NCBI GenBank assembly: GCA_963801165.1
Contig: CAWDDT010000009.1
Span: 1 to 64,000 of the forward strand
Length of the DNA stretch: 64,000 nt
DNA from: an uncultured bacterium
GTDB taxonomy: Bacteria > Actinomycetota > Acidimicrobiia > Spongiisociales > UBA5794
Reading direction: 5' to 3'
In this document: positions 5,536 through 8,618 of the stretch, in pieces
How the letters are laid out: the number at the start of each line of letters is the position of its first letter
Numbering within the stretch: position 1 is the stretch's first letter
Program-made: the position numbers and the translations under genes
Notes under the pieces: model-generated
Told to the model about the DNA's origin: nothing
What the model saw: only the letters and a program-made list of their open reading frames with translations
Databases searched by the model: none

Positions 5536-5583
5536 CGACATCATGCGCCCGTAGCTCAATTGGATAGAGCGTCTCACTACGGA
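5536..5583 (+). repeat. 5'-half copy of tRNA-Arg(ACG) plus 9 nt of leader (att-like duplication)
   Basis: 47/48 identical to 8536-8583; ends exactly after anticodon loop CTACGGA; one change in anticodon stem (5575). Confidence 0.92.
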
Positions 5584-5735
5584 GTATCCAGCACTGAGCG
5601 CTGGGCTAACCCCCGAAGACATTGGGTCAGCGACGAGCGCAACAACCAGAATCAGACGCTGTGCCCCTCTGGGGTCCGCCACGGCAGGTGAGAGCGTCCT
5701 GCAAAGGCCCGGCCTTCTTGAGTCGTTTCCCGCAT

Positions 5736-6179
5736 TCAGGTTCCGTGAGCGATTGTTGCGGTGCGCTCGATCCTGATCAGCATCGCGGCCGATGGTGTGA
5801 CCTTGCCATTCAGGTAGGTGCTCAGTCGTGACCCGCTGGTTCCCACCAGCTGGGCAAACTCGGCGTTGGTGAGCCCGGAACGGTCGACAGCGTCCCGTAC
5901 CCGGGCCGCTACCGCGGCTCGGTCAACTCGATCGGCATGGGCTCGGGCATGTTCCACTGCCAATGCGAACAGCGTGCTGGTTGCATCGGGCTCCCGGTAC
6001 GACAGGTAACGTTCGACGCGCCGTGCGATCCGGCCCCATGGAGAGCGACGAAGCTCAGCGAATATGGGCTGCCAATCCGGGACGAGACCGCGGTCGATCA
6101 CAGCGACCAAGGCCTCATACGGCCAGGTACGGACATCGTCCGCCGGCGAGGCCTCGACGTTGCGGAATGCGACAGGCAT
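5736..6179 (-). CDS. XRE-family HTH protein, putative antitoxin/regulator
   Basis: C-terminal SGLTNAEFAQLVGTSGSRLSTYLNGKVTPS HTH; ATG overlaps stop codon of upstream NTase gene. Confidence 0.8.
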   Translation of the reverse strand: MPVAFRNVEASPADDVRTWPYEALVAVIDRGLVPDWQPIFAELRRSPWGRIARRVERYLSYREPDATSTLFALAVEHARAHADRVDRAAVAARVRDAVDRSGLTNAEFAQLVGTSGSRLSTYLNGKVTPSAAMLIRIERTATIAHGT

Positions 6180-6868
6180 CAGCCCACACCTCCGAGGCGA
6201 AGCGCAAGCATGCGGCACACATCGACAATGTCATTCCAACGGTGATAGCGTTTGTCCAGCGCCTTGTAGCGGGGCAGCTCGTCAATGACATCGGTGTCGC
6301 GTGGCTTGGGGTCGGCCAATGCGAGAACGAGCGATGTCAGTACCGACCCCCATTCTTCGGATCGGTCGTCATAGTACGAATCGATGTCGGACAGGATCGC
6401 AACCGCTGCCTCGTGTCCGATGTGGTCGGCCAAAGCAACAACGTCGAGGTAATCACGGACCACATTTCGTTGTACCACCAGGAATGCCTTGACCCGAAGC
6501 GACTCCGCCGCGGTCGGCGCAACCACCTTTGCGTCCTTGCCCACATCGACCTCGAGGGTTTCCAACGGGCGGGTCCGGCGCATCTGTCGCAAACCGGCCT
6601 CGACACCACCAAGGCGACCCATGATGGTGAACGGCGGCCTTGAAGCTCGAACGGAGGTGGCCCAGCCGTCCGCGGCCTCCACCGCTTCTAATACCACCTC
6701 GTAGCGATCAACCAGGTCGGAGAGCACGTGGTCATGATCAAACGAGTCCCGATGACCGGCGTGAAGAGCAGCAGCCGAGCCCCCGACGAGCACGGCGTCG
6801 GGCACTACCTCCTGCAACCGCGCCGCGGAGGCAAGAACCCGCTGCAACACCGGACTGAACTCTGCCAT
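6179..6868 (-). CDS. AbiEii/AbiGii-type nucleotidyltransferase, putative toxin
   Basis: LVGGSAAALHAGHRDSFDHD matches the GG..A..HR.S.D.D motif; later K...R...RDYLD motif; start at MAEFSP. Confidence 0.75.
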   Translation of the reverse strand: MAEFSPVLQRVLASAARLQEVVPDAVLVGGSAAALHAGHRDSFDHDHVLSDLVDRYEVVLEAVEAADGWATSVRASRPPFTIMGRLGGVEAGLRQMRRTRPLETLEVDVGKDAKVVAPTAAESLRVKAFLVVQRNVVRDYLDVVALADHIGHEAAVAILSDIDSYYDDRSEEWGSVLTSLVLALADPKPRDTDVIDELPRYKALDKRYHRWNDIVDVCRMLALRLGGVG

Positions 6869-7246
6869 GTCCTGATCATATCCGATAAGCCTAGGTGAAT
6901 CAACGCCGGTTTGTGCGTGGCGAGTCCACGGATCGGTCTCCGACCTGGGGCGGGTGTGTTCCGGTCGGCTGCTGTTCGGACAAGGAGACGGCACGCTGTA
7001 GAAGCGCTGTGCCTCTGGAGCGAGCAACGCGAATCAGATGCTGAATTCGCACTTACCACGGCACCGACAGCTTCACCTTCATCGCTACCGACGGGGGTGG
7101 CGGACTCCAACACGGCGACCGCGACGATTACGGTGCTCGAGACGCGGAAGTCCGCAGCATCAATCGAGGTCTTGGTCGCCTCGTTGAAGTTTACGAGGAT
7201 CGTCACCCGCCCGAAGTCGTCGATGAGAGGTTAGACCTCGTCTCGG

Positions 7247-7954
7247 TCACACGTCCGCTGCTGGAGTCGAGTCGCCGGACCGCCGTGCCCGACGAGATCG
7301 TGCCCTCTCTGCCCAATCCCGCCAGGAGCCGGGGACGTCGGGGATGGCGAGTATCCGTGCGATCAGGTCATCTCCCGGTCGAGGGAGTGCTTCTCCGAGA
7401 TCGGTGACGGTGAGACCGTGCCCGGGACGGGCGAAGACCTCGATCGTGTCACCCGCCGCCACTGTGCCTTCCTCGACGATTCGGAGATAGGCGCCGTATC
7501 GCCGCGCCTGCTCAAACCTGTCGACAAAGGCGGCGTCGCCCATGCGGATTCCGAGCTTGTAGCACGGCATCCGGGGTTCGGTGACCTGAAGCACGGTGGT
7601 CCCGATCCGCCATCGCTCACCGATGACTGCACGGGTGAGATCGATGCCCGACACCGTCAGGTTCTCCCCAAACGTCCCTGGGTCGATGCCCGTACCCAAC
7701 TGTTGTGACCACCAGTCGTAGTCGCGGGTTGAGTAGGCGTAGATAGCTTTGTCCGGGCCGCCGTGGACCCTGCGGTCGGCCTGGTCGTCGCCATCGAGAT
7801 TGACGCCGGTTGCCGGGATACGGCCCGATACAGGATGCTTCCATATGGCGGTTTCCACCACACGCCCGGCCCAGTCGATGGTCTGCCGACCGCCCACATT
7901 GACCGATTCGATCCGGCCGCTGCTCTGTGAGGTGTCGATTCGGTCGCTGGTCAT
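7247..7954 (-). CDS. MOSC domain protein (YiiM-like)
   Basis: GDDQADRRVHGGPDKA, FGENLT, PRMPCYKL motifs. Confidence 0.93.
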   Translation of the reverse strand: MTSDRIDTSQSSGRIESVNVGGRQTIDWAGRVVETAIWKHPVSGRIPATGVNLDGDDQADRRVHGGPDKAIYAYSTRDYDWWSQQLGTGIDPGTFGENLTVSGIDLTRAVIGERWRIGTTVLQVTEPRMPCYKLGIRMGDAAFVDRFEQARRYGAYLRIVEEGTVAAGDTIEVFARPGHGLTVTDLGEALPRPGDDLIARILAIPDVPGSWRDWAERARSRRARRSGDSTPAADV

Positions 7955-8167
7955 CAGAGATCGTCAACACCCTGTTGCGGTGCGGTATTCCAGCCTGCCG
8001 GCGTTGGCCCGAGGACTCCAGGGCATGGTTGAGGGTCGTCGACCGCTTTCGCCGGGGGCTGCAAGAGCCGAGACACTCGCCTTTAGCTGATGACGGCGCG
8101 ACGAGCCTCTCACCAGATCTAACGCGGTCGCTTGGTTCCGCTCGAGGTGAGCGCTGAGCTGGCGTCA

Positions 8168-8310
8168 TCAGTGCTGGCGCCTGCCGTCGGTCCGGTAGAG
8201 ATTGCGAGCCCCGATGGCGACAGCCTGATGGAGATAACCACGGTGGTTCACCACGGCCCCCCAGCCTGGCGATCGGAGAGCCCGAAGCACCGCCGATGAG
8301 ACATCTACCC
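8168..8310 (-). pseudogene. Probable ECF sigma factor region-2 remnant
   Basis: DVSSAVLRALRSPGWGAVVNHRGYLHQAVAIGARNLYR resembles ECF region 2; no intact gene. Confidence 0.4.
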
Positions 8311-8544
8311 GTGCTCGGTGAACTGTTGTGGCTGTTAGCTGCGGCATCGAGTTCACGGAGTCAGACGCTGTATGAGCGCTGTGTTACACCGGTGGATGGG
8401 AGCCCTCCTTGGGTAGAAGCTCCGGGAAACGTTGACGGAGTGCCGTTTGGAGCGACCACTGCCGGATACAGCGCCTGATTCGAACTAGAATGCTCATTGT
8501 CGGCTTGGGTTCTCCAGAAACCCTTGCAATACTTACGACATCAT

Positions 8545-8618
8545 GCGCCCGTAGCTCAATTGGATAGAGCGTCTGACTACGGATCAGAAGGTTGGGGATT
8601 CGAGTTCTCCCGGGCGTG
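8545..8618 (+). tRNA. tRNA-Arg(ACG)
   Basis: Acceptor GCGCCCG/CGGGCGT, D arm GCTC..GAGC, anticodon arm TCTGA-CTACGGA-TCAGA, T arm GGGGA-TTCGAGT-TCTCC, discriminator G; CCA not encoded. Confidence 0.97.

What the first reader, a model, noticed from the sequence alone, without database searches (positions are those of the whole stretch)
5536..8583. Upstream island that duplicates the 5' half of the same tRNA
Seen: 48 bp (9-nt leader plus 5' half through CTACGGA) is repeated exactly 3000 bp apart, enclosing a TA pair, a MOSC gene and remnants. A TGGGAGCC sits at ~8397. Known: tRNA-targeting elements usually restore the 3' end. Inference: this element replaces the 5' half and must supply the tRNA promoter, so one anticodon loop is being used for insertion on both sides.
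Basis: partly seen in the sequence, partly recalled or inferred. Interest (0 to 1): 0.7.

Follow-up and report, generated by a model that had tools for sequence, protein, structure and literature searches.

The report
Promoter-bearing gene cassettes at tRNA-Arg
Two small gene cassettes with no recombinase gene were spliced into the anticodon loop of an arginine tRNA gene from the upstream side, each bringing a new front half and upstream region for the tRNA; this insertion polarity is rare but already catalogued, and here it takes an unusual integron-like form that recurs in dozens of related Acidimicrobiia contigs.

Summary
The repeat is real but not exact. The spacing is 3000 bp. It ends at the last base of the anticodon loop CTACGGA of tRNA-Arg(ACG) (8545-8619).

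5584-8583 is inserted DNA whose right end carries a ~190-nt upstream module ('P') plus tRNA positions 1-38. Its left end is a conserved 81-nt module ('A-left'). The same junction occurs in 44 other contigs, and the named genome records among them are titled Acidimicrobiia.

A filled/empty pair shows the polarity. L125 has the native neighbour gene, the native upstream region and the 5' fragment, then a 5.5-kb cassette, then P and the intact tRNA. G007 and G002 have the same neighbour about 137 nt from an intact tRNA.

The window's island is two cassettes with a deletion scar at 6985-7044: an HTH plus AbiEii-like pair, then MOSC. None of 91 ORFs tested in or beside such cassettes is a recombinase inside a cassette.

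Standard 3'-restoring islands sit downstream and use the same 7-nt core. The promoter role of P and the recombinase are inferred, not shown.

5'-fragment islands are known (159 of 3919 in Islander). The integrase-less array form is a new variant. This scan noted similar arrays before in other genomes.

The parts
5533..5583 (+). Displaced 5' fragment of tRNA-Arg(ACG): 12-nt leader plus tRNA positions 1-38, ending in core copy 1 (CTACGGA, 5577-5583). It carries a stem-breaking C at 5575.
   Evidence: All intact copies and the other fragments in relatives have G at this position.
5584..5664 (+). A-left module: the conserved 81-nt left end of the cassette (GTATCC..CTGAGCGCTG..GGTCAGCGACGAGCG..GAATCAGACGCTGT). 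Its last 11 nt are the inverted copy of tRNA positions 22-32.
   Evidence: nhmmer profile hit 5577-5671, E 1.5e-19; the only other hit in the genome is the C5 overlap copy of the same locus. 39 distinct copies were aligned, and conservation stops after TCAGACGCTGT.
5736..6218 (-). Cargo of cassette 1: 160-aa protein with a C-terminal Xre-type HTH.
   Evidence: Pfam HTH_31 5.5e-8, Xre-like-HTH 4e-5.
6179..6868 (-). Cargo of cassette 1: 229-aa protein (the ORF can be read to 7027), a possible AbiEii-like nucleotidyltransferase.
   Evidence: Pfam AbiEii below cut-off, E 0.011-0.06 in three orthologues. Atlas neighbours score 0.97, with AbiEii on 26-42% of members. No PDB sequence hit.
6985..7044 (+). 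Scar between two cassettes: a P-start-like motif (ACGCTGTAGAAGCGCTGTG) fused to a distal A-left-like motif (GAATCAGATGCTGA).
   Evidence: Repeat families D4, D5 and D8. Similarity of the TA cassette to G010 and L129 stops at 6889, and L129 then goes on to a full P module. The reading as a deletion scar is inference.
7247..7954 (-). Cargo of cassette 2: MOSC-domain protein.
   Evidence: Pfam MOSC 5.3e-39; NCBIfam 6-hydroxyaminopurine reductase 1.4e-30, below its cut-off.
8355..8544 (+). P module: the cassette-borne upstream region of the working tRNA. It starts with GAGTCAGACGCTGTATGAGCGCTGTG, holds a TAGAAT box at 8486-8491, and includes the leader.
   Evidence: nhmmer profile hit 8323-8549, E 5.5e-20, the only one in the genome. 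Alignments. The promoter role is inferred.
8545..8619 (+). Working tRNA-Arg(ACG). Its 5' half comes from cassette 2 and its 3' half from the downstream island. Core copy 2 is at 8577-8583.
   Evidence: ARAGORN; Rfam tRNA 61.8 bits. It is the only genuine tRNA-Arg(ACG) in the assembly.
8620..15278 (+). Island B, standard polarity, no integrase. It holds a broken GmrSD/HEC-05-like gene and four ORFs of no family. The right arm 15149-15278 carries TGGGAGCCATTCT and TGTGGAC iterons.
15279..15324 (+). Displaced 3' fragment: core copy 3 plus tRNA positions 39-73 and the start of the trailer, 100% identical to 8577-8622; the sequences read on identically one base further, to 15325 = 8623.
15325..18451 (+). 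Island C (ECF sigma factor, a 285-aa ORF, SoFic-like Fic). It ends in a variant 3' fragment at 18391-18451 with an insertion in the T-loop.

Best explanation
Window 5584-8583 is DNA inserted by site-specific recombination inside the 7-nt anticodon loop (CTACGGA) of the tRNA-Arg(ACG) gene, in the minority 'reversed' polarity. The incoming DNA carried, at its right end, an upstream module P of about 190 nt plus tRNA positions 1-38. At its left end it carried a conserved 81-nt module, A-left. Insertion stranded the previous 5' half at 5545-5583 and made a working tRNA whose upstream region and 5' half are cassette-borne. The island is two such cassettes: an HTH plus AbiEii-like pair, then MOSC. 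The junction between them was later deleted down to a scar at 6985-7044. The cassettes encode no recombinase. I infer that they are moved in trans by a tyrosine integrase acting at this core. A candidate is the integrase lineage that sits just 3' of this tRNA in relatives. I also infer that P provides the promoter for the tRNA. Shown by comparison: the junction structure, its recurrence, the filled/empty pair, cassette sharing between unrelated flanks, and the absence of recombinase genes. Inferred: the enzyme, trans-mobilisation, promoter activity and the scar history.
For: The repeat ends exactly at the loop's end. The downstream 3' repeat starts exactly at its beginning, giving three copies of the core. 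The junction pattern is found in 10 genome contigs and 34 metagenome contigs; the 10 named genome records are titled Acidimicrobiia. A-left is conserved in blocks across 39 distinct copies and stops sharply after TCAGACGCTGT, which is present in 36 of 39. Filled versus empty: in L125 gene X (83% aa identity to the window genome's X) and a native-type upstream region are followed by the 5' fragment, then a cassette, then P and the intact tRNA. G007 and G002 have X about 137 nt from the intact tRNA. The alignment breaks right after CTACGGA. 10 of 42 contigs analysed show a fragment followed 1.2-5.5 kb later by the intact tRNA, and 5 show two fragments in tandem. One aminotransferase cassette is 92-94% identical in three contigs; between L098 and L101, where both flanks are on hand, BLAST finds no similarity outside the cassette and its junction modules; it is terminal in one contig and internal in two. 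The window's TA cassette recurs at 85-89% identity in G010 and L129 behind different upstream sequences. Both profiles hit only this locus in the 4.55-Mb genome. No PF00589 hit lies in the window, and no integrase remnant was found by tblastn. Of 91 ORFs in or beside cassettes, the only integrase lies outside a cassette, next to a tRNA-Met. The displaced fragment alone carries a stem-breaking base.
Against: No recombinase was identified. The integrase next to this tRNA in relatives belongs to standard-polarity elements whose arms carry different repeats (GGTCCGC). For this genome itself no empty site was found. The left fragment is preceded by 12.4 kb of ordinary genes (thioesterase, MFS, TPP enzyme, FAD oxidase, GH15), not by gene X or the native upstream region. 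That stretch has no recognisable cassette ends, so the history on the left is unresolved. P contains no sigma-70 consensus promoter by the simple scan, and there are no transcript data. The 10-bp inverted repeat around the core never varies, so it says nothing about folding. Junction modules of about 300 bp flank every cassette, so homologous recombination could spread cassettes without any site-specific enzyme. Some identical cassettes in metagenome contigs may be the same organism sampled twice (for example L109 and L119).
Confidence: 0.8

Rival explanations
1. The cassettes are decayed remnants of ordinary integrase-bearing reversed-polarity islands (the Islander 5'-fragment class). Each lost its integrase by deletion, and nothing here moves any more.
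For: Catalogued 5'-fragment islands carry integrases (PMC4383910, passages read). The window's island shows decay: a scar at 6985-7044 and a mutated fragment base. No integrase lies at this locus in the window genome.
Against: No recombinase lies inside any cassette among the 91 ORFs tested. Complete units are as small as 1.2-1.5 kb and keep both conserved ends. The same cassettes sit in different contexts with the same boundaries.
Confidence: 0.12
2. One or a few ancient site-specific events made the junction. Since then cassettes have spread and shuffled only by homologous recombination through the ~300-bp junction modules, so no dedicated recombinase exists today.
For: Every cassette is flanked by modules 80-90% alike. 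No recombinase was found.
Against: In L125 a first cassette sits in a site with the native upstream region. There the only shared sequence is the tRNA itself. A-left is conserved motif by motif with variable spacers and a sharp outer edge. That pattern looks like selection on binding sites rather than recent common descent.
Confidence: 0.1
3. A single 9.7-kb element (5584-15278) that carries its own complete tRNA-Arg gene inserted into the host tRNA, splitting it into the halves now at 5545 and 15286.
For: The outermost pieces are a 5' half and a 3' half that flank an intact copy.
Against: The cassette type occurs without any 3' fragment downstream: L092 and 6 others of the 10 contigs that hold both a fragment and the intact tRNA. 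The downstream islands have their own arm repeats on both sides of each 3' fragment. Standard islands occur without cassettes, as in G007.
Confidence: 0.03
4. Assembly artefact: the 5533-5583 copy was created by mis-joining at a repeated tRNA sequence.
For: The genome is a 13-contig metagenome assembly with 5.6% contamination. Unitigs cannot bridge the 51-bp repeat.
Against: Two contigs of the assembly (the C5 end and the C9 start, 99.06% alike over 7.4 kb) both carry GH15, the fragment and the cassette. A contig of a public run spans 5545-6242 with no differences, including the fragment-specific C at 5575 (X2 record 11). The same architecture is seen in 44 other contigs.
Confidence: 0.02

Closest known systems
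tRNA-gene genomic islands with a displaced 5' tDNA fragment and an anticodon-centred att site (Islander class; Zhao & Williams 2002, J Bacteriol 184:859)
   Same: Insertion into a tRNA gene with the island restoring the 5' part. The fragment lies upstream in the same orientation. The crossover is in the anticodon loop. Islander counts 159 of 3919 islands with a 5' fragment and 2083 with an anticodon-centred site (PMC4383910, passages). PMC6563490'-distal recombination 'considerably less frequent' (passage).
   Different: Those islands are defined by an integrase gene inside them. Here none is present in the window or in any cassette examined. Units are 1.2-7 kb with one to a few ordinary genes, stacked in arrays with a conserved ~300-bp junction. 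The Zhao & Williams paper itself was not held; I saw only citations of it.
Integron gene cassettes (attC x attI recombination by IntI)
   Same: Small recombinase-less cassettes, each with one recombination site, stacked head to tail at one platform, with the newest next to the platform site. The same cassette is found at different array positions in different genomes.
   Different: No intI-type gene lies beside the array. The platform is a tRNA gene. Each cassette brings a putative promoter and half of a tRNA gene rather than being promoterless. A folded attC-like site is not shown. The comparison with integrons comes from my own knowledge, not from a call.
Integrase-less cis-mobilisable elements and tandem accretion at att sites (CIMEs of Streptococcus ICEs; satellite-type islands)
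   Same: Elements bounded by att sites that lack their own integrase and rely on one supplied by a related element at the same site; tandem arrays.
   Different: Those use the standard polarity and derive from decayed ICEs. Here the polarity is reversed and the arm motifs differ from those of the integrase-bearing elements at the same tRNA. CIMEs are recalled from memory; PMC7563491 was seen only in a search listing.
Tycheposons of Prochlorococcus (bioRxiv 10.1101/2020.12.28.424599)
   Same: Cargo-carrying elements that stack at island-associated tRNA genes, separated by partial tRNAs, with the newest pushing older ones outward (passages).
   Different: The paper's screen yielded integrase-carrying elements, and 474 of the 501 tycheposons it describes carry a tRNA-associated tyrosine recombinase. 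The passages I read do not describe 5'-half and promoter replacement.
dusA-specific integrase islands (PMC4482086)
   Same: Integration at the 5' end of a target gene.
   Different: A protein-coding target, and an integrase is present. I saw only the abstract in a search listing.

Membership tests
tDNA genomic island, 5'-fragment / anticodon-centred class (Islander definition) | An intact tRNA gene plus a cognate fragment in the same orientation | tested here: met
   tRNA at 8545-8619(+); fragment at 5545-5583(+), 38/39 identical.
tDNA genomic island, 5'-fragment / anticodon-centred class (Islander definition) | Configuration: a 5' fragment must lie upstream of the tRNA gene | tested here: met
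   The fragment lies 3000 bp upstream. The rule is quoted in PMC4383910.
tDNA genomic island, 5'-fragment / anticodon-centred class (Islander definition) | The identity block ends in the anticodon loop | tested here: met
   Identity ends at 5583/8583, the last base of CTACGGA. The 3' repeats start at the first base of the loop.
tDNA genomic island, 5'-fragment / anticodon-centred class (Islander definition) | An integrase gene inside the island | tested here: not met
   No recombinase family in Pfam, NCBIfam or PHROGs for the ORFs of 5584-8544. tblastn with a tRNA-Arg integrase finds nothing in the window. No PF00589 hit within the window.
Integron | An IntI-type tyrosine recombinase gene adjacent to the cassette array | tested here: not met
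   No PF00589 hit in the window. In 42 related contigs, tblastn with two tyrosine integrases found hits in 2, neither at the distal end of an array.
Integron | An attC-type imperfect palindrome at one end of each cassette | tested here: inconclusive
   A 10-bp inverted repeat (tRNA 22-32 against the end of A-left) brackets the core in all 11 sequences folded, but it is invariant, so there is no covariation either way.
Integron | Promoterless cassettes expressed from a platform promoter | not testable with these tools
   No transcript data. Cargo lies on either strand.
AbiE type IV toxin-antitoxin pair (cargo of cassette 1) | An AbiEii nucleotidyltransferase domain above the family cut-off | tested here: inconclusive
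   PF08843 scores 13.7-16.1 bits against a cut-off of 22.5 in three orthologues. Atlas neighbours carry AbiEii on 26-42% of members.

The most novel reading that the evidence does not exclude
tRNA-Arg(ACG) of Acidimicrobiia is the landing pad of an integron-like gene-capture system. Recombinase-less cassettes are excised and inserted in trans by an enzyme not encoded at the array. Each cassette carries one ~300-bp site made of P, the tRNA 5' half, the core and A-left, with four copies of the motif AGCGTCTGA. Each new cassette takes over transcription of the genome's only tRNA-Arg(ACG) gene that both ARAGORN and Rfam recognise. A cassette next to the tRNA therefore cannot be lost by a sloppy deletion without damaging that tRNA. 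Standard-polarity defence islands use the same 7-nt core from the other side, so a single anticodon loop feeds two opposed arrays.
Probability: 0.45. Interest if true: 0.75.

Novelty: new variant of a known kind. Interest (0 to 1): 0.55.

Why it matters
Islands that replace the 5' part of a tRNA gene are a catalogued minority, so the polarity alone is not new. What this locus and its 44 related contigs add is a form that the island catalogues cannot see. The TIGER/Islander resource states that its software insists on at least one integrase gene per island and excluded islands under 2 kb (PMC12424338, whole text). If the cassettes are moved in trans, this is a gene-capture platform working like an integron in the class Acidimicrobiia. 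Each insertion would swap the promoter of a tRNA that is the only gene of its kind in this assembly. The cargo consists of ordinary metabolic, regulatory, transport and toxin-antitoxin-like genes. That would make the locus a visible route for exchange of accessory genes in soil and sediment bacteria. It also offers a compact, testable recombination site.

Tried and rejected
GH15 has a match in 7 of the 41 genomes searched (6 of 40 relatives plus the window's own genome). The best non-self match is 44% identical, and none lies beside a tRNA-Arg. That count includes the unpublished genomes G027 and G038; no other claim rests on them.

Reads: contigs of four runs from one study cover GH15, the cassettes and 15279-19000 at about 100% identity. 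No joint was listed, and unitigs stop at the tRNA repeat. Neither excision nor the link from GH15 to the fragment could therefore be tested. Almost no contig covers 8874-15278 in these runs; without a bridging contig this shows nothing.

The scan of viral contigs for the junction found nothing. Rfam finds only the tRNA in 5300-8900. The sigma-70 scan found no promoter in P.

The region next to gene X shows no remnant of a tRNA half in six genomes. The MOSC cassette was not found in any other contig in hand.

The motif TCAGACGCTGT near a Xer-like integrase at C10 of the genome looked like a lead. It lies in an unrelated ORF with no tRNA nearby, so I dropped it.

I looked for an integrase on the 5' side of the tRNA within 1.5 kb in 58 family loci and found none. 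All 9 loci with hits have the integrase 3' of the tRNA or no tRNA start.

The TGGGAGCC at 8397 is rejected as evidence. The second ARAGORN tRNA-Arg(acg) call at C5:132077 is rejected as false.

Zhao & Williams 2002 could not be read. No supplementary files were opened.
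Full report
**Observation.**
The window holds one tRNA gene, tRNA-Arg(ACG), at 8545-8619 on the + strand (ARAGORN; Rfam 61.8 bits). A direct repeat joins 5533-5583 to 8533-8583. The spacing is exactly 3000 bp and 49 of 51 bases agree (blastn E 4e-15).

The difference is C at 5575 against G at 8575, tRNA position 30, which pairs in the anticodon stem. The repeat covers 9-12 nt of leader and tRNA positions 1-38, and it stops at the last base of the anticodon loop CTACGGA.

A second repeat starts at the first base of that loop. The stretch 8577-8622 equals 15279-15324 at 100%, and the two read identically one base further. The 7-nt loop is therefore present three times, at 5577, 8577 and 15279. 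It is the only sequence shared by the upstream and downstream repeats. That is what a tyrosine-recombinase overlap region would look like; this last point is inference from general knowledge.

**What lies between the repeats.**
- 5584-5664 is non-coding.
- 5736-6218(-) encodes a 160-aa protein with an Xre-type HTH.
- 6179-6868(-), readable to 7027, encodes a protein with only sub-threshold AbiEii matches: E 0.011-0.06 in three orthologues. Its Atlas neighbours carry AbiEii on 26-42% of members.
- 7247-7954(-) is a MOSC protein (5e-39).

No integrase or other recombinase was found by Pfam, NCBIfam or PHROGs. tblastn with a tRNA-Arg-linked integrase found nothing either. None of the genome's 20 PF00589 hits lies in the window.

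**The assembly.**
The window is the start of contig C9 of a 13-contig genome. The end of contig C5 overlaps C9:1-7399 at 99.06% identity and carries the same GH15, fragment and cassette order. Contigs of four public runs from one study cover the cassettes at about 100% identity. One spans 5545-6242 and another spans 7980-8574. Unitigs cannot bridge the 51-bp repeat, so confirmation by long reads stays open.

**Relatives in the genus.**
The tRNA is 100% identical in the window genome and 7 relatives among the 15 genus genomes searched. 5'-only fragments (positions 1-39) occur in G006 and G010 as well as in the window genome. 3'-only fragments are common.

A conserved neighbour, gene X (DUF885; C5:650227-651885 in the window genome), lies on the 5' side of the tRNA in G006, G007, G009, G010 and G011, and in G002 by the upstream alignment. 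Its distance to the tRNA varies widely:
- about 137 nt in G007 and G002;
- 2.1 kb to the fragment in G006;
- 3.1 kb to the fragment in G010;
- 3.4 kb in G011;
- 4.6 kb in G009;
- 12.4 kb to the fragment and 15.4 kb to the intact tRNA in the window genome.

So the 5' side of this tRNA is a variable spot.

**The junction family.**
The sequence right after the fragment (GTATCC...) is shared by G006 and G010. G010 also shares 1353 bp at 85% identity (window 5540-6889), covering the HTH and AbiEii-like genes.

A scan of one genome per species for the 25-nt junction gave 10 contigs, all titled Acidimicrobiia or Acidimicrobiaceae. Two of them coincide with contigs already seen and are counted once. 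A metagenome scan gave 34 more. A viral scan gave none.

Across 39 distinct copies, the 81 nt after the core form a module I call A-left. It has conserved blocks (GTATCC, CTGAGCGCTGTGC, GGTCAGCGACGAGCG, AGAATCAGACGCTGT), and conservation ends abruptly after TCAGACGCTGT. That motif is present with at most one mismatch in 36 of 39 copies, 30 of them at +67. It is the inverted copy of tRNA positions 22-32. The pairing is invariant in the 11 sequences folded, so it neither supports nor refutes a folded site.

**The upstream module P.**
The intact tRNA of the window genome, G006, G008, G010 and G011 is preceded by about 190 nt of conserved sequence. The same module precedes many displaced fragments; 24 of 48 distinct upstream sequences score 35 bits or more.

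P has four recognisable parts:
- It starts with GGAATCAGACGCTGTATGAGCGCTGTG, the same two motifs as in A-left.
- It holds a direct copy of the tRNA-like site (CAGCGTCTGAT).
- It holds a TAGAAT/TAGCAT box about 55-60 nt before the tRNA.
- It ends in a conserved leader.

In the window genome both profiles hit only this locus. A-left hits 5577-5671 (plus the C5 overlap copy) and P hits 8323-8549.

**Polarity: a filled and an empty site.**
In L125, gene X (83% aa identity to the window genome's X) starts 145 nt from a 5' fragment. The upstream region of that fragment is of the type seen in G007 and G002. The alignment of L125 with G007 runs through X, the intergenic region and the tRNA up to CTACGGA. 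It then breaks: L125 continues with A-left and G007 with the 3' half. In L125, 5.5 kb further on (ABC transporter and two-component genes), comes P and the intact tRNA.

So the inserted DNA runs from A-left to P plus the 5' half. The working tRNA uses the cassette's upstream region. The tRNA is the only tRNA-Arg(ACG) in the assembly. A second ARAGORN call at C5:132077 lies inside an ORF and has no Rfam match.

**Cassettes as units.**
Of 42 contigs analysed, 10 show a fragment followed by the intact tRNA 1.2-5.5 kb later. Five show two fragments in tandem. Three of them (L110, L111, L125), like the window itself, also have a 3' fragment downstream of the same tRNA.

An aminotransferase cassette is 92-94% identical in L098, L099 and L101. 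Between L098 and L101, where both flanks are on hand, BLAST finds no similarity outside the cassette and its junction modules. It is next to the intact tRNA in L098 and internal in the other two. The window's TA-like cassette recurs in G010 and in L129 (88.7%). In L129 it is followed by about 500 nt and a full P.

In the window, similarity stops at 6889. At 6985-7044 a P-start-like motif is fused to a distal A-left-like motif (families D4, D5 and D8). I read this as a deletion scar between a TA cassette and a MOSC cassette. This is inference.

Cargo elsewhere is ordinary: aminotransferase, flavin enzymes, STAND regulators, ABC and two-component systems, cupin, SnoaL. Of the 91 ORFs tested in or beside cassettes, the only integrase lies outside a cassette, next to a tRNA-Met.

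**The other side of the tRNA.**
Downstream lie three islands of standard polarity.
- B is 8620-15278.
- C runs to 18390.
- D runs to about 21435.

Each ends in a 3' fragment preceded by an arm with TGGGAGCCATTCT and TGTGGAC repeats. All five perfect copies of TGGGAGCCATTCT in the genome lie in these arms. The lone TGGGAGCC at 8397-8404 is one of 200 in the genome, and it is not conserved in P of relatives, so it is not evidence. These islands carry defence-type genes: a broken GmrSD/HEC-05-like gene and a SoFic-like Fic. They hold no integrase.

In six family genomes and in L131, a tyrosine integrase sits immediately 3' of this tRNA. L131 also has a 1.5-kb cassette on the 5' side. That integrase lineage is the obvious candidate enzyme. 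However, its elements use other arm repeats (GGTCCGC). None was found on the 5' side within 1.5 kb in 58 loci.

**Mechanism proposed.**
A circular cassette with one site (P, 5' half, core, A-left; about 300 bp with four AGCGTCTGA-type motifs) recombines with the tRNA gene at CTACGGA. The old 5' half and its upstream region are pushed away, and the cassette's P and 5' half take over. Repeats of this event stack cassettes, with the newest next to the tRNA.

- Shown: the structures, their recurrence and the filled/empty pair.
- Inferred: the circle, the enzyme, promoter activity, and whether transfer today is site-specific or by homologous recombination through the junction modules.

**What is unresolved in the window genome.**
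The stretch between gene X and the fragment is 12.4 kb: thioesterase, MFS, TPP enzyme, FAD oxidase and GH15. It has no recognisable cassette ends. Only 12 nt before the fragment resemble P.

**Comparison with what is known.**
Islander lists 159 of 3919 islands with a 5' fragment and 2083 with an anticodon-centred site (PMC4383910, passages). PMC6563490 describes 5'-distal recombination as considerably less frequent and cites Zhao & Williams 2002 (passage). That paper itself was not held.

The polarity is therefore known. The locus fails the integrase criterion of that class. The TIGER/Islander resource states that its software insists on at least one integrase gene per island and excluded islands under 2 kb (PMC12424338, whole text). 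Cassettes like these would therefore be missed.

My literature searches turned up no description of integrase-less, promoter-bearing cassette arrays at tRNA genes. These were a few keyword searches, not an exhaustive review.

Earlier notes of this scan describe similar arrays at tRNA-Arg, tRNA-Gly and tRNA-Pro in other genomes. None shares sequence with this one.

**Verdict.**
I class the locus as a new variant of a known kind, of moderate interest.

Noticed in passing
window 18391-18451 and about 21436-21490; also L055 (G009) and L061 (G011): The third displaced 3' fragment carries a hairpin insertion of about 17 nt in the T-loop. The same variant recurs in G009 (two copies) and G011. A degenerate copy without the CTACGGA core lies near 21436. 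A tRNA with that T-loop would hardly function, so how such a fragment came to be displaced is unexplained.
   Followed up: partly
window 8694, 15151, 15163, 15393, 18264, 18521 and 15180-15270, 18290-18380: The arms of the standard-polarity islands carry TGGGAGCCA motifs (6 in the window against 0.6 expected). Five of them extend to TGGGAGCCATTCT, and those are the only perfect copies in the genome. The arms also carry tandem TGTGGAC iterons, which are likely protein-binding sites of that element family.
   Followed up: partly
window 9545-10255 and 10674-11186 (-): A GmrSD/HEC-05-like defence gene is split into two ORFs inside island B. It is followed by four ORFs (11588-14847, minus strand) with no match in Pfam, NCBIfam, PHROGs or PADLOC.
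   Followed up: no
window 15471-18163: Island C holds an ECF sigma factor, a 285-aa ORF and a SoFic-like Fic protein (PADLOC 4e-86). Fic proteins also sit beside the 3' fragments in G008, G009 and G011.
   Followed up: no
G000:C5:658784-666192 versus window 1-7399: Two contig ends of the assembly overlap over 7.4 kb at 99.06% identity. This is probably two haplotypes, or an unmerged overlap, of one locus.
   Followed up: partly
G000:C5:132077-132151: ARAGORN calls a second tRNA-Arg(acg) here. It lies inside an ORF, has no likeness to the real tRNA and has no Rfam match, so it is a false positive.
   Followed up: yes
L060:6134-7288, L131, and L033, L073, L074, L079, L085: One tyrosine integrase lineage (64-100% identical to the G007 protein) sits directly 3' of tRNA-Arg(ACG) in six genomes of four genera of the family. 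The window genome's closest copy (71%) sits next to a tRNA-Thr(TGT) instead.
   Followed up: partly
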